A DNA stretch of 64,000 nt. Source: Escherichia phage kaaroe. Position numbers and translations under genes: made by a program. Of this stretch, positions 6,668 to 63,397 are shown in pieces (position 1 is the first letter of the stretch; each line of letters begins with the position of its first letter). The stretch is taken from sequence record MN850574.1; one strand, 5' to 3'. The notes beneath the pieces are model-generated. The model saw only the letters and a list, made by a program, of their open reading frames with translations, did no database searches and had not been told where the DNA came from.

Positions 6668-6678
6668 TGAAATCTATC

Positions 6679-6703
6679 AGCCATCCTTCGGGGTGGCTTT
6701 TTT
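6679..6703 (+). terminator. rho-independent terminator
   Basis: hairpin AGCCATCC-TTCG-GGGTGGCT plus T-run. Confidence 0.7.
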
Positions 6704-6713
6704 GTTTTTGTGC

Positions 6714-6741
6714 TTGACAGAGCGATTTAGATGCCTATAAT
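6714..6741 (+). promoter_or_regulatory. sigma70-type early promoter (TTGACA-16-TATAAT)
   Basis: TTGACA at 6714, TATAAT at 6736. Confidence 0.65.
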
Positions 6742-7065: not shown

Positions 7066-7340
7066 TGGACAAGAAAACAGCGTTAATGGTTTACATGCTA
7101 CGCGAAGACCACGGTCTTAATTTTGTTGATATTGCTAAAAAGATTGGCGGGATCAGCGGACAAGATGCGGCTAAGGCATGGTTGATGGTAAAAGATGCAC
7201 GAGAGGCTTACGCCAACCGTGAAAAGGTTGTTTATCGTAAACACCACATCAACAAAAAATTTAAAAATAAAGTTCAAAAACGTGTTGACATGCCAAATAA
7301 CACTGTTATAATGGACGCATTCAAACGGGCAATGTCCTGA
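7065..7340 (+). CDS. small basic protein with helix-turn-helix-like segment
   Basis: ATG overlapping previous stop (TGATG); LNFVDIAKKIGGISGQDAAKAWL resembles an HTH. Confidence 0.45.
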   Translation: MDKKTALMVYMLREDHGLNFVDIAKKIGGISGQDAAKAWLMVKDAREAYANREKVVYRKHHINKKFKNKVQKRVDMPNNTVIMDAFKRAMS

Positions 7341-7386: not shown

Positions 7387-7824
7387 ATGAAATTCCGTAA
7401 AAACCACGTAGCAATGAAAAAGGCAATGTTCGAAGCATTCAAAGCAGTTGATCAGGGCGGTGTTACGCTGATTGAGCAAATTAATGTTGATGTTTGGCAA
7501 TCTCCGGCGATCACCTGCTCCCGTCTTGCTACGGCTGGCCTTCTGAAAGTTCACAGCTCTACCGCATACGACGAAGCATTGCAAGTTATTAAGGCTTTTG
7601 CGGGAGACGTTACCAGCAAGTGGGTCTATGAGAATAAAGGTGAAATTGCGGTTGCTCACGTAGGCAACAATATTCAGATGGAAATCAAGATTAAGGAAGG
7701 GTCTAAACGCAATCAGATGCTTGTTCGCTTCCAACCATACAAAACTAACGTAGTGCCGGATGATCTGATCATCTCTAAGAGTAATGTTACCATTCGCCGA
7801 AATCAGATCGTTATCAACAAATAA
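7387..7824 (+). CDS. hypothetical protein
   Basis: 145-aa ORF with RBS, followed by terminator. Confidence 0.5.
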   Translation: MKFRKNHVAMKKAMFEAFKAVDQGGVTLIEQINVDVWQSPAITCSRLATAGLLKVHSSTAYDEALQVIKAFAGDVTSKWVYENKGEIAVAHVGNNIQMEIKIKEGSKRNQMLVRFQPYKTNVVPDDLIISKSNVTIRRNQIVINK

Positions 7825-7832
7825 TTAACATT

Positions 7833-7857
7833 AGCCGTCCTTCGGGGCGGCTTTTTT
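7833..7857 (+). terminator. rho-independent terminator
   Basis: hairpin AGCCGTCC-TTCG-GGGCGGCT plus TTTTTT. Confidence 0.7.
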
Positions 7858-7883
7858 GTATCTGTTATTAACATAATTTTAGT

Positions 7884-7969
7884 TTACATGTGCACAATAT
7901 TAATACTGTTTGATTAAATTATGATCAAAACGAAGAAAGATCTTTAGAACATAGAAAATGTATCTTTGG
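7884..7969 (+). repeat. intergenic repeat copy A (TTTACATG...GATTAAATTATGATCAAAACGAAGAAAGATCTTTAGAA)
   Basis: near-identical to copies at 8050-8120 and 44124-44167; contains palindrome AAAGATCTTT. Confidence 0.6.
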
Positions 7970-8049
7970 TTAATTATTAATCACTACATATTGTAACACA
8001 AATGTTATACTCCGTAGGAGTTCGCGAAGCGATATCCTTTTGTGTAGTT

Positions 8050-8120
8050 TTTACATGTATGATTAAATTATGATCAAAACGAAGACTTATCTTATAGAAT
8101 AATAAAAATTTGTTTCGAAC
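8050..8120 (+). repeat. intergenic repeat copy B
   Basis: shares TTTACATGT...GATTAAATTATGATCAAAACGAAGA and TAGAATAATAAAAATTTGTTTCG with copies A and C. Confidence 0.6.
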
Positions 8121-8238
8121 ATTTATTAATCAATTACTGGAAGTGTTTTTAATGCTCGCTGTGCTCGCTTCCGCTACGCGGATACTTGTATTTGTTATTA
8201 ACTTGTAGTATGATATTGCTTTCTATGGAGGAAATATT

Positions 8239-8826
8239 ATGTTTGACCAGTTACAAGATCTATTTGGAGTAAAACCACTTCGTAGATGTGCTTTAATCGG
8301 CTCTAGAAAAGCGCCTAGCGACATTTTGATAATGGCTAGTACCATTGGGAGGGTATTGTCAGAAAATCGCGTTGTAGCGCATTCTGGAGGGGCTTACGGT
8401 ATGGACAATGCTTTCATGAAGTATTACGACCCAGAGTATAGAAAAATTTTCATTCCAAATTGGAAGTTTTATGACCACAAGCATAACGGTCATGATGTGA
8501 TTGCATGGCAAACCTTAGAACAAAAAAATCTGGCGATGGATGAATTAGAACACGTTTATGATAATCCTCGTTCTATACCGTTATACATGCAAAATCTGTT
8601 TTCTAGAAATGTTGCTCAAGTCTTAGGTGAGACACTTGATGATCCTGTAGATTGTGTGATATTCTGGGCGAAAGAAGTTAATGGAATCGTTTCTGGAGGA
8701 ACTAGAATTGCTGTTTATGTTGCCCGTAGACATGGGATACCATGTTTTAACTTATATCATCAAGAAAATAGATCCGCCGTCGAAAAAATCTTGGGCGGAT
8801 CTGACTTGTCTTGGTTAGATATTTAG
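8239..8826 (+). CDS. DprA/Smf-like (SLOG-type Rossmann) protein
   Basis: 195 aa; ALIGSRKAP and VVAHSGGAYGMDNAF resemble the DprA Rossmann-domain motifs (GSR..., SG.A.G.D..AH). Confidence 0.45.
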   Translation: MFDQLQDLFGVKPLRRCALIGSRKAPSDILIMASTIGRVLSENRVVAHSGGAYGMDNAFMKYYDPEYRKIFIPNWKFYDHKHNGHDVIAWQTLEQKNLAMDELEHVYDNPRSIPLYMQNLFSRNVAQVLGETLDDPVDCVIFWAKEVNGIVSGGTRIAVYVARRHGIPCFNLYHQENRSAVEKILGGSDLSWLDI

Positions 8827-25118: not shown

Positions 25119-26888
25119 TTATACCGGAGAAATCCCAAAGAGGAACTCTTTAATTTGTACTGGCTGTGCTACTGCTTCGGCAGATACACCCTTAATACGG
25201 ATGTTAATCTGATCTCCCGTTTCAATATTTAGGAAAGCACTGGTAGAATAGCTGATCAATTCGTCTGTTCCGTAATGACCATTTTTCGCTTCATGTACCA
25301 TCTGTCCATTTTTGAAAATCGCAACAATGAATGTTGCATTATGTTGAGCTTGTACATCACAACGGAATACACAACGGAATAAACCTTTGTCCTGAACGGT
25401 AACAACAGATTCACTTTTCACCATTTGACGCGCATTAACTTCTTCCGCCATGTCGTTAAGCGGAATCGGTTTATAAACATCCTGTTCGTCCAGTTCAACC
25501 GTAATATCTGCGGTATTTTTAAATGCTCCAGCAGCATATGCAACTTGCACCCATTCTCCGCGCTTACGCAGATAATGGAAGCCGTCATCAGGTACATCAT
25601 CTACTTTGTTTCCGTTAGATGTTTGTAGCTCTTTGACGATTTTAATCACGCCTTTCTGAGTAAATGGATCTTCTGAACCATCATCGCCATAGATATCACT
25701 TGATAGTTTAATAACGCCAGCGGTCAAACCTGATTCGCGATCACCTACAATCTGTTCCATGTCCTGTACGCTTGCTTCTAACCGACCCTGAGTGTTTTCT
25801 ACAACTTTAATACGTCCGGCTAGAGTATGTCGATCGCTGTCAGTGCCAATCTCATTGGAAAGTCGAACAACTTCACCGCGCAAACCGTCAGCACCGCTTA
25901 CACCAACAACCTGTTTAAGATCTAAAAATTCTCGCTCTGTGTTGGTTAATCGATAGTCAATGCTTCCAGCCGATTGAGGCGTTCCGATCTTATTCTCGAC
26001 AGCCAGAAGACGAGGACGAATACCGGAATCTACACCATTAACATCATTGTTTAGACGTTCATAATTAGTTCCCAGCGTAGTGACTTTAGTCCCGATATCA
26101 GGGATTGAATCAAACAAAATTGCTTTCTTGACTTCTAGAACTTCGTTTGATAAGTTAGCAATGTTTCTTGAGTTGGTGCGGAGACGAACATACACATTTT
26201 CTTGTGTTGCAAGAGACGTGTCGCCGATCTCACTGCGCATTTTGTTAACTTGTTTTGTTAACTCGCCTACGTCAGAATCTTGCCAGTCGTTTTCAAGCTG
26301 AATGATTCGGCGACCGTGGTCATTTAATGCTGCGGTATTCTGAATAACTCGGTATTTGATACCAGAACCGGAACTGCCAGCATCAGGGGAACCATTGATA
26401 TTAAAGTTAGGATAAGAACCCATTTCTTGTTTGATGAAAGAAATGTCATCATAGATTGTTCTTGTGCTAGGATCGGCAGCGGGGCGATCACCAATCTTGA
26501 TGTTAAGTTCTGATACAGCGTCTACCGTTGTTTGTAGAGTTCTTGCTGTTTCTCCTAAGTTATCTTCGACGGATTCAACTTTTGCGACAGTCTGGTTAAC
26601 CACATCAATGATACTTCCGTCAGAAATTACCCCTAAAGTTGTTTTAATATCGTTAACCGCCGTTACAACCTCGTTAACTTTAGCGACGGTTGATTTTGCG
26701 TTTTCGTTTACGCGTGCAACGTTTTCTTGAATTGCAACCGGGGCGCGGTTAAGCGTCCCGTCATTGCCAGTCTGTGTCGTTGCTGCGCTTAAACATTCGC
26801 CATTCTTGATCCAGTTAATACGGTGCTGTCCTTCGCTTGGTACACCGTCAACATGTGGGATCTCGTGGATGTTTAATTGTTCAATCAT
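25119..26888 (-). CDS. wac: fibritin (whisker) Wac with C-terminal extension beyond foldon-like segment
   Basis: N-terminus HVDGVPSEGQHRINWIKNGE matches T4 fibritin; foldon-like DGFHYLRKRGEWVQV followed by about 140 extra residues. Confidence 0.8.
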   Translation of the reverse strand: MIEQLNIHEIPHVDGVPSEGQHRINWIKNGECLSAATTQTGNDGTLNRAPVAIQENVARVNENAKSTVAKVNEVVTAVNDIKTTLGVISDGSIIDVVNQTVAKVESVEDNLGETARTLQTTVDAVSELNIKIGDRPAADPSTRTIYDDISFIKQEMGSYPNFNINGSPDAGSSGSGIKYRVIQNTAALNDHGRRIIQLENDWQDSDVGELTKQVNKMRSEIGDTSLATQENVYVRLRTNSRNIANLSNEVLEVKKAILFDSIPDIGTKVTTLGTNYERLNNDVNGVDSGIRPRLLAVENKIGTPQSAGSIDYRLTNTEREFLDLKQVVGVSGADGLRGEVVRLSNEIGTDSDRHTLAGRIKVVENTQGRLEASVQDMEQIVGDRESGLTAGVIKLSSDIYGDDGSEDPFTQKGVIKIVKELQTSNGNKVDDVPDDGFHYLRKRGEWVQVAYAAGAFKNTADITVELDEQDVYKPIPLNDMAEEVNARQMVKSESVVTVQDKGLFRCVFRCDVQAQHNATFIVAIFKNGQMVHEAKNGHYGTDELISYSTSAFLNIETGDQINIRIKGVSAEAVAQPVQIKEFLFGISPV

Positions 26889-28288
26889 TAGCGCACCCTT
26901 ATGATATAGTTTAATGCCAGACTCTTGACGCGAGTCTCGTTAGCCGTTCTTACGGATCTTCCTGAATCAAAGTTAACAGTAGAACCCCAATCATCACCAC
27001 CACCGTTTTTATAGTTCGTGCTCCATTGACCGCGCTGTGCAGTAAATGCGCCACCATACCAACCGCGCCAGCGGTCAGCTACAGGGAATTTACCAGTAAT
27101 TCTCTGCATTGCGTCTTCTTGATAAGAACCAAATCGACGACCTGGATCAAGGTTTCTTCCATGATCGCAACCACGAGCAACTAAACCGCGCATATCAGGA
27201 AGATTAAAATTGTCACCTGAACCACCAAAGGTATAACCAATCGCAGAAAATAATTGCGGATATTGATTTTTATTCAGTGAACGACCATTACAGATCAGAA
27301 AGTCACCTCGGTCGGCATTGAATCCAGAAAGGATAATACCACCAATTGGCATTGCGTGATTCGCTAATTCATTTTTAGTAACAAACTGGTTGCCGTCTGA
27401 GTTTGAACCTTTATAGACGTTTCCGCTTACCGTACCGCCAGTGCTAGGAAGAACCTTAGCATTTGCTGATAGTGCAGCGTTAGCCTCACTTCCTACGGTG
27501 TCTCGTAGTTTAACAATGCCGTATTGAGACGTTGTTGCCTTAGTGCTTGCAAACTTCTTAGCAGAAACAACTACAGTATCATCTGAACCAGCATTCATCT
27601 GTGACTGGCTGGCGATCTTAACAGTACCCGCCTGATTCTCATTGGCGCGAGCATTTGCAAATGCATAAGGGCTAATTGCAAAACCTTCTCGAATCTGGCC
27701 TTGTAAAACCTGCGCATTAGTTGCTAACTGAACTAAACCCTGTGCGCTTTCGGTTGCTGTGTTTTGATCTGGAATTAATCCCGGCACAATCTGTGCAATG
27801 GCAGTGTGCATCTTTTTCGGTGTTACTGCCATTGTGTCATCGCTGCCAATCTTTGCCGCCTCAAGAGAACATATCTTAATAGTCCCCTGAACGCTCTCTG
27901 ACGCCTTTTTAGTGGTGAAGTAATGGTTTAGTGTGTCTGGACCGATTGCCATGTTCTCGTTGCTCTCTTGCAGCGATTCTTCCATCGTGGCAAATCGGGT
28001 AATGCCTTTTACTTCTTTTGTAGCATCTGGACGTGACATTTTAACAGCTAGTGTTTTTGGAGTCACGATCTTATTGTCTACAGTGCCGTCGTTTACTTCT
28101 TCCTGAGTTGCGATTGCAGCGATCCCGGCTGTATCTTCCGTAGCGTCCGGTAATCCATTTACGGCAAAGCCATTAATAGCGGCTAAAGCCGCTTGTACGT
28201 TGGTAATGCTTTGAGGCCAATCATTTACAGGGTTAAACTTGACGTATTGAGCATCGTCTTTTACATGGTTAATAGTATTGTTTGCCAT
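26888..28288 (-). CDS. 12: short tail fiber gp12
   Basis: 466 aa, repeat-rich, C-terminal region with conserved Gly/His/Cys pattern; synteny wac-12-11. Confidence 0.8.
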   Translation of the reverse strand: MANNTINHVKDDAQYVKFNPVNDWPQSITNVQAALAAINGFAVNGLPDATEDTAGIAAIATQEEVNDGTVDNKIVTPKTLAVKMSRPDATKEVKGITRFATMEESLQESNENMAIGPDTLNHYFTTKKASESVQGTIKICSLEAAKIGSDDTMAVTPKKMHTAIAQIVPGLIPDQNTATESAQGLVQLATNAQVLQGQIREGFAISPYAFANARANENQAGTVKIASQSQMNAGSDDTVVVSAKKFASTKATTSQYGIVKLRDTVGSEANAALSANAKVLPSTGGTVSGNVYKGSNSDGNQFVTKNELANHAMPIGGIILSGFNADRGDFLICNGRSLNKNQYPQLFSAIGYTFGGSGDNFNLPDMRGLVARGCDHGRNLDPGRRFGSYQEDAMQRITGKFPVADRWRGWYGGAFTAQRGQWSTNYKNGGGDDWGSTVNFDSGRSVRTANETRVKSLALNYIIRVR

Positions 28289-43769: not shown

Positions 43770-43775
43770 CATTAA

Positions 43776-43798
43776 GCCCGTCATTGACGGGCTTTTTT
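43776..43798 (+). terminator. rho-independent terminator
   Basis: hairpin GCCCGTCA-TTG-ACGGGC plus TTTTTT. Confidence 0.7.
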
Positions 43799-43799
43799 A

Positions 43800-44054
43800 T
43801 TATAGATCTATAGCATGAGCATAACCATGTAAGAAGTCTTTTAATTCTTCCTTATTGGTAACACGCTGTAAAATCTCTAATGCCTTGTCGCGATCACGTA
43901 ATGCACCTGAAAGGGATTTTATTTGATCATCCCTTTCTGCAATCTGCTTAAGCAGATCTGTATTGCATTTAGACAAATAGAGAACTTCACCCCGCAATGT
44001 TGCTAATTCGTTATCCAAACGATCATAGAGTTTTAACAAAATGTCTTCTGTCAT
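43800..44054 (-). CDS. hypothetical coiled-coil protein
   Basis: 84-aa ORF convergent with gp2. Confidence 0.45.
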   Translation of the reverse strand: MTEDILLKLYDRLDNELATLRGEVLYLSKCNTDLLKQIAERDDQIKSLSGALRDRDKALEILQRVTNKEELKDFLHGYAHAIDL

Positions 44055-44123
44055 AAGAAGTCCTCGTATAGTACCCGTTTTATTTATTACTGTATAAAAA
44101 TATAGTTATTGGTTAAAACATAA

Positions 44124-44167
44124 CCAAAACGAAGAAAGATCTTTAGAATAATAAAAATTTGTTTCGG
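44124..44167 (+). repeat. intergenic repeat copy C (CAAAACGAAGAAAGATCTTTAGAATAATAAAAATTTGTTTCGG)
   Basis: matches copies at 7884-7969 and 8050-8120; followed by two short hairpins. Confidence 0.6.
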
Positions 44168-44243
44168 TTAAAAAGTAGTCAGTGCCTACGGCACGTCGCA
44201 AAGCGACAATTGTTAATAAATATTTTCATTTGAGGAATCAGTA

Positions 44244-44834
44244 ATGTCTAATCTCTTTAACTATGCTAACCCTAGCAACTGGCAGATCAATATTCCAGAT
44301 GGACAGCTAACAAAAGGCTTTACTTTAAATGCTCAAGGTGTTACACTTCCTGCTATAACCATTCCACCGACTAAGCAAGTTGCTGGTCAATATGGTTTGG
44401 CGGTCGCTGATTATCCGTCTAGTCATGTGGAGTTTGACCCGTTGGTAGTCCGGTTTATTGTCGATGAGCATTTGGAAAGCTATCTAAACCTTTACACATG
44501 GATGCTTTCTATAGTAGACTACAATAACGGTAACTCCACTGCGTGGAAGGATTCAATGCCGGAAGCCGTTCAAGTTCACATGATGGACAACGAACGACGT
44601 AACATTGTGTGCACTTTTAACTTTTATGGTTGTTGGTGTTCACAATTGGGGGAACTTGAGTTAACATACACCGATGATATGCATGAATCTCTGGTGTGTA
44701 CTGCAATTCTTCCCTTTAAAACAATGAGCATTGAACGTGATGGTCAACTGATCGTTCCTCGCCCAGCAATTCAGGCGGCGGATCGTCAGCGGGTGGAAGG
44801 TATTAAAGCTATGCACCCTGCTTTTAGAAAGTAA
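44244..44834 (+). CDS. 3: tail completion / sheath stabilizer gp3
   Basis: 196 aa, synteny (3 next to 1 and 2/4). Confidence 0.65.
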   Translation: MSNLFNYANPSNWQINIPDGQLTKGFTLNAQGVTLPAITIPPTKQVAGQYGLAVADYPSSHVEFDPLVVRFIVDEHLESYLNLYTWMLSIVDYNNGNSTAWKDSMPEAVQVHMMDNERRNIVCTFNFYGCWCSQLGELELTYTDDMHESLVCTAILPFKTMSIERDGQLIVPRPAIQAADRQRVEGIKAMHPAFRK

Positions 44835-54378: not shown

Positions 54379-54620
54379 TGTATGTGATGACACCTTATAG
54401 TAACCGCAAGTATATTACACCAAATACACTGTATGAATATACACCACATGAAAGATTTGCGAATAGTGGTTATATCCGTGATGATAAGGGACACCAGATT
54501 TTTATTTGTCTTAAAAATTGTGCACACTTAGACGGTCGAACATGGACACTGATCGAAGAACCAAAACAACCTGAGAATAAAGGTCTTTGGAACGCAATTA
54601 AAAAAATCTTGAAAAAGTAG
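54375..54620 (+). CDS. small protein, paralog family 1
   Basis: ATGA overlap with previous stop; NCAHLDGRTW motif. Confidence 0.5.
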   Translation: MMYVMTPYSNRKYITPNTLYEYTPHERFANSGYIRDDKGHQIFICLKNCAHLDGRTWTLIEEPKQPENKGLWNAIKKILKK

Positions 54621-54649
54621 TTGACACAACAAAACGGGGGTAGTAATAT
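54621..54649 (+). promoter_or_regulatory. early promoter module TTGACA-17-TAATAT with spacer hairpin GGGGGTA...TACCCCC
   Basis: read directly. Confidence 0.6.
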
Positions 54650-54680
54650 ACCCCCATCGAAACAACAAAGGAGTATTAAA

Positions 54681-58995: not shown

Positions 58996-59228
58996 TGTTA
59001 GTCACCGTGGGATGCATACCAGAAGTAAAAGAATACTAGCATTAACACAACTATTTGGCTTCCTCATACTTTCGCGTGTTCAATTACTGCCGAATCGGAA
59101 GACCCGTCTAAGACGAGGAAGGGTTATCATTGGAAAGGGATGGTGAATTGGTTACTATGTTTAACTAGTTTAGCAAAGGTCGATTCAAACACTACTATAC
59201 AAATGGACGTGAATAAAATATAATCAAA

Positions 59229-59256
59229 AGCCATCCGAAAGGGTGGCTTTTTCGTT
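59229..59256 (+). terminator. rho-independent terminator
   Basis: hairpin AGCCATCC-GAAA-GGGTGGCT plus T-run. Confidence 0.7.
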
Positions 59257-59264
59257 TTTAGGTG

Positions 59265-59293
59265 TTGACAACCGGAATAGGGTATATCATAAT
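59265..59293 (+). promoter_or_regulatory. early promoter module TTGACA-17-CATAAT
   Basis: read directly. Confidence 0.7.
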
Positions 59294-59322
59294 GCACACA
59301 TCGACAACAAAGGAGAATCAAA

Positions 59323-60208: not shown

Positions 60209-60489
60209 AAGACACAAACGAATTTAACGGTATTAAGGTAAGCCCGAATTTTATTGTTCCATCACTGGTGACTAAGCTGAATGGTCATATGGTCGCTTTG
60301 TCTTCCACACCGCCAGAATCAGGAAAGTTTATCACTATCGTAGTTTATGCGGGGCAAATTTTCTCTCATGATTGCTGCATGAAAAATGGTCAGTTGATGG
60401 TTGCAAATTATGACTATGGAGACCTTGAATGGGAAGTTTTAGATCTGGCTAAAAGTGCTGAAATTCTGGGCTATATTCGATTAGTTTAA
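60205..60489 (+). CDS. hypothetical protein
   Basis: 94 aa, ATGA overlap. Confidence 0.5.
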   Translation: MKDTNEFNGIKVSPNFIVPSLVTKLNGHMVALSSTPPESGKFITIVVYAGQIFSHDCCMKNGQLMVANYDYGDLEWEVLDLAKSAEILGYIRLV

Positions 60490-60506
60490 AAATTTCTTAG
60501 AAAGTG

Positions 60507-60535
60507 TTGACAGCGATCCGGTGTTATTGCATAAT
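60507..60535 (+). promoter_or_regulatory. early promoter module TTGACA-17-CATAAT
   Basis: followed by CATCGAAACGAGATAC and RBS. Confidence 0.7.
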
Positions 60536-60576
60536 ACACCCATCGAAACGAGATACACTTTCTAGGAGAATCAAAA

Positions 60577-61638: not shown

Positions 61639-61644
61639 TTTTAT

Positions 61645-61671
61645 GGGCTATCCTTCGGGGTAGCCTTTTTT
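61645..61671 (+). terminator. rho-independent terminator
   Basis: hairpin GGGCTATCC-TTCG-GGGTAGCC plus T-run. Confidence 0.7.
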
Positions 61672-61682
61672 GTTTTTGGGTG

Positions 61683-61710
61683 TTGACAAAGATAATCACA
61701 ATGCTATAAT
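61683..61710 (+). promoter_or_regulatory. early promoter TTGACA-16-TATAAT
   Basis: read directly. Confidence 0.7.
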
Positions 61711-62683: not shown

Positions 62684-62934
62684 TCACCGGATATATTCCA
62701 TATTCAACGACAAAACACATTATCGGATTCGAAGACATAGAAAAGTCTTGCTTTCCTCTCAAGGTTGAAGTAGACTTTATTACAGCGAACGGATGGGCTT
62801 ACGTCACTGTTTCAGAAATGAAGCGCGTAGGGTGGGAAAACTGCATACACCTACCGCATCTTATCCTAGATGTTCGCGCTGGTGAAATTGATATTGCTGG
62901 AAAGATCTATGGAGACAATGTAAATGAAAATTGA
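62680..62934 (+). CDS. hypothetical protein
   Basis: 84 aa, ATGA overlap. Confidence 0.45.
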   Translation: MITGYIPYSTTKHIIGFEDIEKSCFPLKVEVDFITANGWAYVTVSEMKRVGWENCIHLPHLILDVRAGEIDIAGKIYGDNVNEN

Positions 62935-63121
62935 AATTATTGATGACGGTGGATTTTCTTTCATGAATGGCGTTAAACTTCCTATCATCGTGGAAGGTCG
63001 TCGTTATGGGCTTGATTATCTTGTAGAAACGCAGGAACTACAAAAAGCTGGCGTACCAATTAAAGGTTATTTTCCTGAATATGAATGGTGTTTTCGTGCA
63101 AATGAAGCCTGGGCGGTATAA
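62924..63121 (+). CDS. small protein, paralog family 2
   Basis: MKIEIIDDGGFSFMNGVKLPIIVEGR. Confidence 0.5.
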   Translation: MKIEIIDDGGFSFMNGVKLPIIVEGRRYGLDYLVETQELQKAGVPIKGYFPEYEWCFRANEAWAV

Positions 63122-63139
63122 CTAATTGAGGATTATATT

Positions 63140-63397
63140 ATGAAGATTGAAATTATTGACCGTGCTGGGTATACTTTCATGGAAAAAGTTAAACTTCCTA
63201 TCATTGTTGAAGGTCGCCCATTATGTCAAGGATTCATGATAAAGACCAGAGAACTACGAAATGCGGGTGTTCCTGTTGAATCATGTTTCAGTGATGATTA
63301 TGAATGGTGTTTCAGTGGTTTACGTGCACATAAAGTAAAAGAAGCACGAAAAGCATCATGGTTTGCTAGCTTTAATAACTGGTTGAGGAAACTGTGA
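63140..63397 (+). CDS. small protein, paralog family 2
   Basis: MKIEIIDRAGYTFMEKVKLPIIVEGR, about half identical to previous ORF. Confidence 0.5.
   Translation: MKIEIIDRAGYTFMEKVKLPIIVEGRPLCQGFMIKTRELRNAGVPVESCFSDDYEWCFSGLRAHKVKEARKASWFASFNNWLRKL

What the first reader, a model, noticed from the sequence alone, without database searches (positions are those of the whole stretch)
44124..44243. Third copy of the palindrome-containing repeat plus two short hairpins in the gp3 upstream region
Seen in sequence: CAAAACGAAGAAAGATCTTTAGAATAATAAAAATTTGTTTCGG is followed by hairpins GTGCC-TAC-GGCAC and GTCGC-AAA-GCGAC about 40 nt before the gp3 start codon. This pairing of the repeat with small stem-loops mirrors the 8.1-kb locus. 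Inference: a shared regulatory unit controlling gp3 and the DprA-like gene.
Basis: seen in the sequence. Interest (0 to 1): 0.4.

Follow-up and report, generated by a model that had tools for sequence, protein, structure and literature searches.

The report
Conserved hairpin module shared by coliphages
The repeat upstream of gp3 is one of four copies per RB49-like phage genome of an undescribed, evolutionarily conserved hairpin module (a long AT-rich hairpin followed by GC mini-hairpins) that also occurs in an unrelated E. coli prophage family, so it is a real portable cis-element, but its function is not established.

Summary
The window is an RB49-like coliphage (Krischvirus).

The repeat is more than a palindrome-bearing direct repeat. 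It is a roughly 72-nt imperfect hairpin at 44110-44181, with copies at 7911-7983 and 8060-8132. It has an outer helix, a symmetric internal loop, an inner helix and an A-rich apical loop carrying (G/T)ATCTT. GC mini-hairpins follow it.

- **Base pairing is under selection.** 81.6% of cells are paired, against 29-48% in slid controls. Ten pairs changed on both sides.
- **Copy number is fixed.** Nearly all 58 Krischvirus genomes carry four copies. The fourth lies upstream of gene 36, outside the window.
- **A homologue exists in a prophage.** It sits in a siphovirus-type prophage present in about 1% of complete E. coli genomes, just downstream of a conserved promoter-like site.
- **No known family matches.** There is no Rfam hit, no public annotation and no mention in the RB49/phi1 papers I could read.

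At gp3 the module lies between two divergent late-promoter-like motifs, so it is outside the late gp3 mRNA.

My best guess is a sense-strand structured RNA, acting as a processing or insulating element in read-through or leader transcripts. A replication-origin role or an atypical promoter remain possible.

The parts
44110..44181 (+). Copy C of the long imperfect hairpin. Outer helix TGGTTA 44110-44115 pairs with TAGTCA 44176-44181. Inner helix TAACCAAAACGAA 44121-44133 pairs with TTTGTTTCGGTTA 44158-44170. The A-rich apical loop is 44134-44157 and contains the palindrome AAAGATCTTT (44135-44144) and a -10-like TAGAAT (44144-44149). A competing local hairpin is TTGGTTA-AAACA-TAACCAA at 44109-44127.
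   Evidence: Sequence. Covariance model hit of 83.5 bits, E = 9e-13. Pair counts on alignment A2. Folds.
44182..44194 (+). GC mini-hairpin 1, GTGCC-TAC-GGCAC, abutting the long hairpin.
   Evidence: The equivalent hairpins after other copies have different stem sequences (A: CTCC-GTA-GGAG; B: TCCGC-TAC-GCGGA).
44195..44207 (+). GC mini-hairpin 2, GTCGC-AAA-GCGAC. In copies A and D it is TCGC-GAA-GCGA.
   Evidence: Flagged as weakly terminator-like.
44215..44222 (+). Late-promoter-like AATAAATA, 21 nt before the gp3 ATG. The SD GAGGAA is at 44232-44237.
   Evidence: The same motif class sits 20-45 nt before many late-gene starts in the window. RB49 late promoters tolerate A or T at -13 (PMC1524935). 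Copy D has a perfect TATAAATA at the same relative place.
44081..44088 (-). Late-promoter-like AATAAATA for the divergent 84-aa ORF (43800-44054, minus strand; RB49p130 homologue).
44244..44834 (+). Gene 3 (tail completion / tube terminator), the downstream gene.
7911..7983 (+). Copy A of the long hairpin (outer helix TGATTA / TAATCA). It lies 58 nt after the intrinsic terminator at 7833-7852.
8010..8032 (+). Tandem GC mini-hairpins after copy A: CTCC-GTA-GGAG (8010-8020) and TCGC-GAA-GCGA (8022-8032).
8060..8132 (+). Copy B of the long hairpin. Its apical palindrome is degenerate. It has a compensatory T-A where copy C has C-G.
8170..8182 (+). GC mini-hairpin after copy B (TCCGC-TAC-GCGGA), 57 nt before the DprA-like start at 8239.

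Best explanation
The element is a portable structured module that works in single-stranded form on the sense (+) strand, most likely as RNA. It consists of a roughly 72-nt AU-rich irregular hairpin followed by GC 'clamp' mini-hairpins.

In the E. coli prophage it forms the first domain of a promoter-proximal leader or non-coding RNA.

In RB49-like phages it sits between an upstream intrinsic terminator and the next gene's own promoter and RBS. There it would be present only in transcripts that read through from upstream.

My proposed mechanism is intercistronic punctuation. The long hairpin would be a target for a host double-strand-specific activity, as in RNase III-type processing, or a barrier. 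The GC hairpins would cap the resulting ends. Read-through RNA would then be uncoupled from the downstream gene, or the distal message stabilised.

**Shown:** the hairpin, its covariation, its strand bias, its copy number, its contexts and its horizontal sharing.

**Inferred:** that it is transcribed in the RB49-like phages, that it is processed, and that processing affects expression.
For: 1. **Pairing is conserved while sequence changes.** On 17 distinct variants, 81.6% of cells pair against 29-48% when partners are slid. Ten pairs have changes on both sides against 0-3 in slid controls. No shuffle out of 500 reached any measure.
2. **Four sequence versions of the inner helix all pair.** They are CAAACGTA/TACGTTTG, TACATCAAAAGAG/CTCTTTTGATGTA, GTAACT/AGTTAT and CCAAAACGAA/TTTGTTTCGG.
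3. **Paralogues within one phage genome covary through G.U intermediates.** Columns 19-67 read G.U / G-C / A-U. Columns 21-65 read U.G / U-A / C-G.
4. **Wobble cells favour the + strand.** There are 33 G.T cells against 12 A.C cells.
5. **Orientation is consistent.** All four phage copies and the prophage copy are co-oriented with the downstream gene.
6. **The prophage context looks like the start of a transcript.** A conserved promoter-like TTTATA-16-TATTAT with an extended -10 lies about 45 nt upstream. RNAalifold independently predicts a multi-branch domain whose closing helix begins at the expected transcript start and which contains the long hairpin and three mini-hairpins.
7. **The variable inner helix is not a cognate operator.** It changes completely while the adjacent divergent protein stays 88% identical.
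8. **The element is shared by two unrelated E. coli phage groups** that also exchange a tail-fibre gene and a DUF1311/LprI gene. This fits an element that depends on host rather than phage-specific machinery.
9. **Read-through RNA at locus A/B is plausible.** A strong early promoter (7285-7312, 12/12) and a terminator (7833-7852) lie just upstream.
Against: - No transcript data exist for any copy.
- In RB49-like phages I found no good promoter directly upstream of any copy.
- Three copies lie just after strong intrinsic terminators, so little RNA may cover them.
- At gp3 the module lies between divergent late-promoter-like motifs and is outside both predicted late mRNAs.
- The hairpin has large internal and apical loops and is very AU-rich, which is not a textbook RNase III substrate.
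- The minimum-free-energy fold of copy C prefers a local hairpin over the long one.
- The covariation would equally fit a single-stranded DNA hairpin.
- The wobble bias of 33 to 12 comes from related sequences and only about 6 versus 4 independent positions.
- Rfam has no related family.
Confidence: 0.38

Rival explanations
1. It is a DNA-level replication initiation site, an origin or primer-forming element. It would substitute for the MotA-promoter-plus-unwinding-element origins of T4 in these MotA-less phages. The AT-rich inverted repeat would melt or extrude, an internal -10-like TAGAAT could give a primer transcript, and the GC hairpins would bound the unwound region.
For: - **Composition.** The module is about 100 bp with 19-28% G+C.
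- **Resemblance to T4 origins.** The phage copies carry a -10-like hexamer with a conserved box about 30 bp upstream and an AT-rich stretch downstream. This resembles the minimal roughly 100-bp oriF/oriG design of a promoter without a -35 plus an unwinding element (PMC3016281).
- **Number and placement.** There are only three loci per genome, all in late-gene regions near strand-switch points. That is where T4 oriE, oriF and oriG lie (PMC3016281; maps).
- **MotA is absent.** RB49 lacks MotA and middle promoters (PMC1524935), so its origins must differ from T4's.
- **Prophage context.** There the element heads a 1.26-kb non-coding region with at least 9 GTGTAGG(T/G)TT iterons.
- **At gp3 it is outside the predicted late mRNAs**.
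Against: - TAGAAT is not conserved in prophage variants (TGGAAT; TAATAC).
- A promoter-plus-unwinding-element model does not explain selection for base pairing across the whole hairpin.
- Origins that depend on phage-specific initiators should not transfer between a T4-like phage and a siphovirus prophage.
- The prophage iterons lie 400 nt away, and nothing similar flanks the RB49-like copies.
- Closeness to T4 origin positions is loose (1-5 kb) and was noticed after the fact.
- The mini-hairpin DNA motifs GCGAAGC and CCGAAGG are not enriched in these genomes.
Confidence: 0.2
2. It is an atypical promoter or operator cassette. Host RNA polymerase would start at the apical TAGAAT with help from a factor bound to the conserved CAAAACGAAG box or to the inverted repeat. 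This would give early or delayed-early expression of the DprA-like gene and of gene 1 through gp3. It is the nearest reading to the first reader's.
For: - TAGAAT (TAGAAC in copy A) is present in all four phage copies and in the main prophage type. An invariant AAACGAAG lies 9-10 nt upstream and an AT-rich start region follows.
- No other sigma-70-like promoter lies between the 7833 terminator and the DprA-like start (one search finds only the repeat region).
- Host-polymerase promoters are portable between phages.
- RB49 has no known middle-mode system, which leaves room for another.
Against: - The best -35 candidates match only 3 of 6 (TAACCA, TGATCA, TCATCA). The consensus scan does not call a promoter there.
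- Divergent prophage variants lose the critical -11 A or -7 T.
- The AAACGAAG 'box' is one arm of the covarying helix and is replaced wholesale in variants.
- The neighbouring protein does not co-vary with the helix.
- Early expression of tail genes 3 and 36 has no evident purpose.
- Only four copies exist, far too few for a transcription class.
Confidence: 0.15
3. It is a selfish or neutral palindromic repeat, MITE/ERIC-like, or a recombination linker like PeSL cassettes. It would persist at module boundaries and have spread by recombination between co-infecting phage and prophage, without a dedicated function.
For: - It is an imperfect palindrome with inverted termini (TGATTA...TAATCA).
- It is intergenic and multi-copy.
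- It is shared between two phage groups that demonstrably exchange genes.
- Copies sit next to apparent insertions or replaceable modules: the 84-aa ORFan between genes 2 and 3, the DprA-like gene where T4 has rnlB, and the tail-fibre cassette.
Against: - There is no presence/absence polymorphism. All 58 genomes keep the full A/B spacer at 95-100% identity, and nearly all have four copies.
- No target-site duplication is visible at any copy.
- Paralogues are old (70-79% identity) yet keep pairing through compensatory changes.
- The trailing GC hairpins are kept although their sequences differ.
- Scans of IMG/VR, GTDB genomes and JGI metagenomes found no other hosts.
Confidence: 0.1

Closest known systems
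PeSL cassettes (promoter-early stem-loop) of RB49/phi1 and other T4-like phages (Arbiol 2010, PMC2839356; Comeau 2014, PMC4122927)
   Same: Both are repeated, intergenic composite motifs in the same phages. Both sit at gene or module boundaries next to terminators and are co-oriented with downstream genes. Both plausibly move by recombination.
   Different: - PeSLs are a GC stem-loop terminator plus a near-perfect sigma-70 promoter. They are present in dozens of copies in hyperplastic early regions; families D1-D3 are of this kind.
- This module has no consensus promoter.
- Its defining part is a 72-nt AU-rich covarying hairpin.
- It has four copies and lies in core or late regions.
- Neither paper mentions it.
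T4 oriF / oriG (ori(uvsY), ori(34)): middle promoter plus downstream unwinding element (PMC3016281)
   Same: - Both are about 100 bp and AT-rich.
- Both have a -10-like hexamer without a -35 and a conserved box near -30.
- Both occur at few loci per genome, in late-gene regions near transcription strand switches.
   Different: - There is no MotA box (TGCTT) and no MotA in RB49.
- The hairpin covariation has no counterpart in oriF or oriG.
- The -10-like motif is not conserved across the family.
- Replication activity is untested.
RNase III processing hairpins of phage early mRNAs (T7 intercistronic sites, lambda sib / N-leader). This comparison is from my own knowledge, not from a paper read here.
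   Same: - Both are an irregular hairpin with lower stem, internal loop and upper stem.
- Both are intercistronic or in leaders.
- In both, structure is conserved more than sequence.
- Both depend on a host enzyme and so are portable.
   Different: - The internal loop (4-9 x 4-9 nt) and apical loop (about 22-27 nt) are much larger.
- The stems are AU-rich with mismatches.
- No cleavage data exist.
- T4-type phages are not known to rely on RNase III punctuation.
Single-strand initiation signals with stable mini-hairpins (G4 complementary-strand origin, RSF1010 ssiA, N4 hairpin promoters; PMC13037366)
   Same: Both are clusters of adjacent hairpins that include C-GAA-G triloop mini-hairpins. GCGAAGC occurs after copies A and D, and CCGAAGG occurs twice in the prophage.
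   Different: - The window's copy C has GCAAAGC instead.
- Those heptamers are not enriched in these genomes.
- No dedicated primase or N4-type polymerase is known in these phages.

Membership tests
PeSL (promoter-early stem-loop) cassette | Near-consensus sigma-70 promoter (TTGACA-N17-TATAAT) inside the repeat | tested here: not met
   The consensus scan finds none on the + strand within 44055-44243 or 7860-8238. The best manual candidate pairs a 3/6 -35 with TAGAAT.
PeSL (promoter-early stem-loop) cassette | G-run/C-run stem-loop terminator as part of the repeated unit | tested here: not met
   Terminators precede copies A and D but are not part of the repeat. Copies B and C lack them.
PeSL (promoter-early stem-loop) cassette | Many copies concentrated in hyperplastic early regions flanking ORFans | tested here: not met
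   There are exactly four copies in the RB49 genome, at three loci in core or late regions.
T4-type origin (oriF/oriG design) | MotA-dependent middle promoter (TGCTT box at -30 plus a -10) | tested here: not met
   The sequence at about -30 is AAACGAAG. RB49 has no motA or middle-promoter consensus (PMC1524935).
T4-type origin (oriF/oriG design) | A+T-rich unwinding element downstream of the promoter | tested here: met
   44150-44175 is almost entirely A/T. The element as a whole is 19-28% G+C.
T4-type origin (oriF/oriG design) | Supports initiation or autonomous plasmid replication in infected cells, with R-loop formation | not testable with these tools
   This needs infection experiments.
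RNase III processing site | Irregular double-stranded hairpin of about two helical turns in a transcribed intercistronic or leader position | tested here: inconclusive
   The hairpin, with 6 + 13-16 potential pairs around an internal loop, is supported by covariation. Transcription is inferred only, and the loops are unusually large.
RNase III processing site | Cleavage by RNase III | not testable with these tools
   This needs rnc mutants or in-vitro cleavage.
MITE / ERIC-like mobile palindromic repeat | Terminal inverted repeats | tested here: met
   TGATTA...TAATCA (TGGTTA...TAGTCA in copies C and D) is 99% paired across variants.
MITE / ERIC-like mobile palindromic repeat | Target-site duplication and insertion polymorphism among close relatives | tested here: not met
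   There are no flanking duplications. All 58 genomes retain the same copies.
Any Rfam family | Covariance-model match | tested here: not met
   There are 0 hits at gathering threshold in the window. Only chance-level hits (E = 0.5-0.8) appear on the prophage region.
Mini-hairpin-DNA single-strand initiation signal | GCGNAGC / CCGAAGG mini-hairpins specifically placed at the site | tested here: inconclusive
   The motif is present after copies A and D and in the prophage, but is absent from copy C of this window. It occurs at background frequency genome-wide.

The most novel reading that the evidence does not exclude
The four modules are the replication origins or primer-forming sites of RB49-like phages. 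This would be a hairpin-based, MotA-independent origin design using host machinery, shared by horizontal transfer with the origin region of a temperate E. coli phage. It would explain how T4-type phages that lack middle-mode transcription start replication, and why the modules sit next to late promoters, linking replication initiation to clamp-dependent late transcription.
Probability: 0.15. Interest if true: 0.75.

Novelty: new variant of a known kind. Interest (0 to 1): 0.5.

Why it matters
RB49-like phages are used in phage therapy and are the reference for T4-type phages that lack MotA middle-mode control. How they time delayed-early expression and where they start replication is not known.

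This work identifies a small set of strongly conserved, structured, unannotated intergenic elements. They sit in front of a tail-completion gene, a tail-fibre gene and a DprA-like gene, and they are shared with a temperate phage of the same host. That gives a concrete handle on either question.

The element also shows that non-coding modules, not only genes, move between virulent and temperate coliphages.

If it turns out to be only a structural spacer, its practical value is limited to better annotation of these genomes.

Tried and rejected
- **Consensus sigma-70 promoter inside the repeat.** Not found.
- **PeSL membership.** The defining features were not met.
- **Rfam.** No family matched.
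- **Short peptide.** Copies A and B could encode MIKTKKDL, but copies C and D have no start codon, so I rejected it.
- **RBS masking as in T4 gene e or soc.** Predicted pairing of the SD/ATG is the same with and without the module for gp3 (0.49 vs 0.50) and gene 36 (0.66 vs 0.73).
- **Antisense loop with a co-varying target nearby.** None was found in the divergent prophage variants.
- **Cognate operator for the adjacent divergent protein.** That protein is 88% identical between variants whose inner helices are entirely different. It is acidic, with no DNA-binding domain hit.
- **A protein partner shared by the two phage groups.** Only a tail-fibre gene and a DUF1311/LprI gene are shared.
- **Enrichment of stable DNA mini-hairpin heptamers.** They occur at background frequency.
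- **Wider distribution.** Four pattern scans of IMG/VR, GTDB genomes and JGI metagenomes returned only Krischvirus and the one prophage family, plus chance hits.
- **More copies in RB49.** None were found.
- **Resemblances recalled from memory and not tested.** These are the pC194/phiX174 nick-site consensus near ATCTT, hix/gix invertase sites, HK022 put RNA, and the type I-F CRISPR repeat hairpin for GTGCC-TAC-GGCAC. None is conserved across copies.
- **Desplats 2002 (PMC135041).** The paper could not be read.

Full report
**Identity of the window.** The region around the finding is 98-99.5% identical to 58 RB49-like coliphages of the genus Krischvirus, in reverse orientation to the RB49 record.
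- The order on the + strand is gene 4, gene 2 (ends 43769), a bidirectional terminator (43774-43794), an 84-aa ORFan on the minus strand (43800-44054; RB49p130 homologue, PHROG of unknown function), a 189-nt spacer, gene 3 (44244-44834), gene 1, 57A and 57B.
- The other locus is a 414-nt non-coding gap. It lies between an ORF ending at 7824, with its terminator at 7833-7852, and a DprA-like gene starting at 8239.

**Checking the observation.**
- The core string occurs exactly twice in the window and a degenerate copy a third time, with none expected by chance.
- A profile of the three copies finds them at E of about 1e-20 and nothing else in the window.
- The hairpins are at 44182-44194 and 44195-44207.
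- Tandem GC mini-hairpins occur only at 8010-8032 and 44182-44207 in 64 kb, each just after a repeat copy.

**What the repeat really is.** Aligning the copies shows a unit of about 85 nt. It was a homologue from elsewhere that revealed its structure.
- A pattern scan of IMG/VR found, besides Krischvirus contigs, about 25 prophage-like contigs of roughly 35 kb with an 80-nt stretch 78-80% identical to the repeat.
- These belong to a siphovirus-type prophage present in 56-58 of 5,426 complete E. coli genomes.
- Divergent prophage variants keep the ends of the unit but replace its interior. In every variant the two replaced halves are complementary: CAAACGTA/TACGTTTG, TACATCAAAAGAG/CTCTTTTGATGTA, GTAACT/AGTTAT, against CCAAAACGAA/TTTGTTTCGG in the window.
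- The unit is therefore a long imperfect hairpin. The outer helix is TGATTA/TAATCA (TGGTTA/TAGTCA in copies C and D, with two G.T wobbles). It has a symmetric internal loop, an inner helix of up to 13-16 pairs, and an A-rich apical loop of 20-odd nt that starts with (G/T)ATCTT.

**Testing the hairpin.** I counted pairs on 17 distinct variants.
- 81.6% of cells pair, against 29-48% when partners are slid by 1-3 columns.
- Ten pairs show changes on both sides, against 0-3 in the slid controls. No shuffle out of 500 reached any measure.
- Paralogues within one phage genome also covary, through G.U intermediates.
- G.T cells outnumber A.C cells 33 to 12, which favours pairing on the + strand. This rests on few independent events.
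- A competing local hairpin (TTGGTTA-AAACA-TAACCAA) uses the same central segment. It is the minimum-energy fold of copy C in context, so two folds are nearly iso-energetic.
- The whole 111-nt module folds better than shuffles on either strand (z of -3.5 to -4.1).

**Distribution.**
- RB49 has exactly four copies. The fourth lies outside this window, in the 204-nt gap between tail-fibre genes 35 and 36, directly after a terminator. The same two GC hairpins follow it, and then a perfect late promoter TATAAATA about 30 nt before the start codon.
- All 58 genomes carry the element, nearly all with four copies. The whole A/B spacer is 95-100% identical in all of them, so there is no insertion polymorphism.
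- A highly specific structural pattern gave no false hits in IMG/VR. In JGI metagenomes it returned only these two groups plus four chance hits. GTDB genomes gave only chance matches.
- Rfam has nothing. Public records do not annotate the element. The RB49/phi1 papers I could read do not mention it.

**Context in the phage.** Late-promoter-like [T/A]ATAAATA motifs lie 20-45 nt before many late-gene starts in the window.
- One is at 44215-44222, 21 nt before gp3.
- Another, on the minus strand at 44081-44088, is 26 nt before the 84-aa ORF.
- Copy C with its hairpins therefore fills the space between two divergent late promoters and lies outside both predicted late mRNAs.
- No consensus sigma-70 promoter lies directly upstream of any phage copy.
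- Copies A, B and D follow strong terminators. A perfect early promoter at 7285-7312 reads toward A and B.
- In the phage, any RNA form would therefore come from read-through transcription.
- The module does not mask the downstream ribosome-binding sites in predicted folds.

**Context in the prophage.** The element lies in a divergent control region.
- About 45 nt upstream is a conserved promoter-like site, TTTATA-16-TATTAT with an extended -10.
- RNAalifold predicts a multi-branch domain whose closing helix starts at the expected transcript start. The domain contains a GC mini-hairpin, the long hairpin and two C-GAA-G mini-hairpins.
- The hairpin-rich stretch runs about 380 nt to a terminator-like site. 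An array of GTGTAGG(T/G)TT iterons and a strong promoter follow.
- The hairpins after phage copy A (CCGTAGG..GCGAAGCGA..TATCC) have a recognisable counterpart in the prophage stretch. The phage module thus looks like a shortened version of the prophage one.
- The protein encoded divergently next to the element is acidic and of unknown function. It stays 88% identical between variants whose inner helices are entirely different, which argues against a co-evolving operator.
- The two phage groups also share a gp37-like tail fibre (43% over 918 aa) and a DUF1311/LprI gene (56%). Exchange between them is therefore real.

**Interpretation.** What is shown is a conserved, strand-oriented, base-paired module that moves between unrelated phages of one host. 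That pattern is what one expects of an element read by host machinery.
- I favour an RNA-level role: a structured leader domain in the prophage, and an intercistronic processing or insulating element in read-through transcripts in the phage, with GC hairpins as end caps. I hold this at moderate confidence because no transcript evidence exists and the phage copies lack their own promoters.
- A DNA-level origin or primer site is the most interesting alternative. The module is about 100 bp and AT-rich, with a -10-like hexamer and no -35. It occurs at three loci in late regions near strand switches, as for T4 oriE, oriF and oriG, and it heads an iteron region in the prophage. However, the -10-like motif is not conserved, and the model does not explain the hairpin.
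- A selfish repeat is unlikely given fixed copy number, old paralogues and compensatory changes.

**Verdict.** The feature is real and previously undescribed, with good evidence for structure and none yet for function. It is of moderate interest.

Noticed in passing
outside the window: RB49 NC_005066 ~149985-150082 (L006:2985-3082): There is a fourth copy of the module between tail-fibre genes 35 and 36. It sits directly after a terminator and is followed by GTGCC-TAC-GGCAC, TCGC-GAA-GCGA and a perfect late promoter TATAAATA.
   Followed up: yes
L020:7753-8998 (E. coli prophage; = NZ_CP080126 ~2407796-2409056): This is a 1.26-kb non-coding region in a siphovirus-type prophage found in about 1% of complete E. 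coli genomes. It contains, in order, a promoter-like site, a hairpin-rich stretch of about 380 nt, at least 9 GTGTAGG(T/G)TT iterons (8322-8449), and an 11/12 sigma-70-like promoter at 8643-8671. It looks like an origin or control region, and neither it nor the neighbouring proteins match known families.
   Followed up: partly
L090:8578-12108 and 26593-27372 vs RB49 151726-154647 and 157931-158725: The prophage tail-fibre protein is 43% identical over 918 aa to the RB49 gp37-like distal tail fibre. Its LprI/DUF1311 protein is 56% identical to RB49p262. This shows gene exchange between a virulent T4-like phage and a temperate phage.
   Followed up: partly
window 6676-6719, 46290-46359, 48282-48351, 49245-49313, 54602-54670, 59226-59311, 60487-60556, 61643-61686: These are repeat families made of a GC stem-loop terminator followed by a near-perfect sigma-70 promoter (GTTGACA...TATAGCATAAT) and a conserved leader. 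They match the published PeSL cassettes of RB49/phi1.
   Followed up: partly
window 43774-44088: An 84-aa predicted coiled-coil ORFan (RB49p130 homologue) is inserted in the opposite orientation between genes 2 and 3, which are adjacent in T4. It shares a bidirectional terminator with gene 2 and has its own late-promoter-like AATAAATA.
   Followed up: partly
window 8003-8011: An extended -10-like TGnTATACT lies between hairpin copy A and its GC mini-hairpins and overlaps the first mini-hairpin. It has no counterpart at copies C and D.
   Followed up: no
window 62924-63000 and 63140-63216: Two adjacent small ORFs begin with 79%-identical 77-nt stretches and share upstream RBS repeats. They look like a tandem duplication of an ORFan.
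   Followed up: no
window 8239-8826: The 'DprA-like' label rests on PHROG 768 (1e-60). The Pfam DNA_processg_A match is partial and below the curated cut-off (22.3 vs 29.6 bits). Some records call the gene an RNA ligase, and it occupies the position of rnlB in T4.
   Followed up: no
window 44179-44194: From memory, TCAGTGCC-TAC-GGCAC loosely resembles the type I-F CRISPR repeat hairpin (CUGCCGUAUAGGCAG). The corresponding hairpins after copies A and B have unrelated sequences, so I did not pursue a repeat-mimic role.
   Followed up: no
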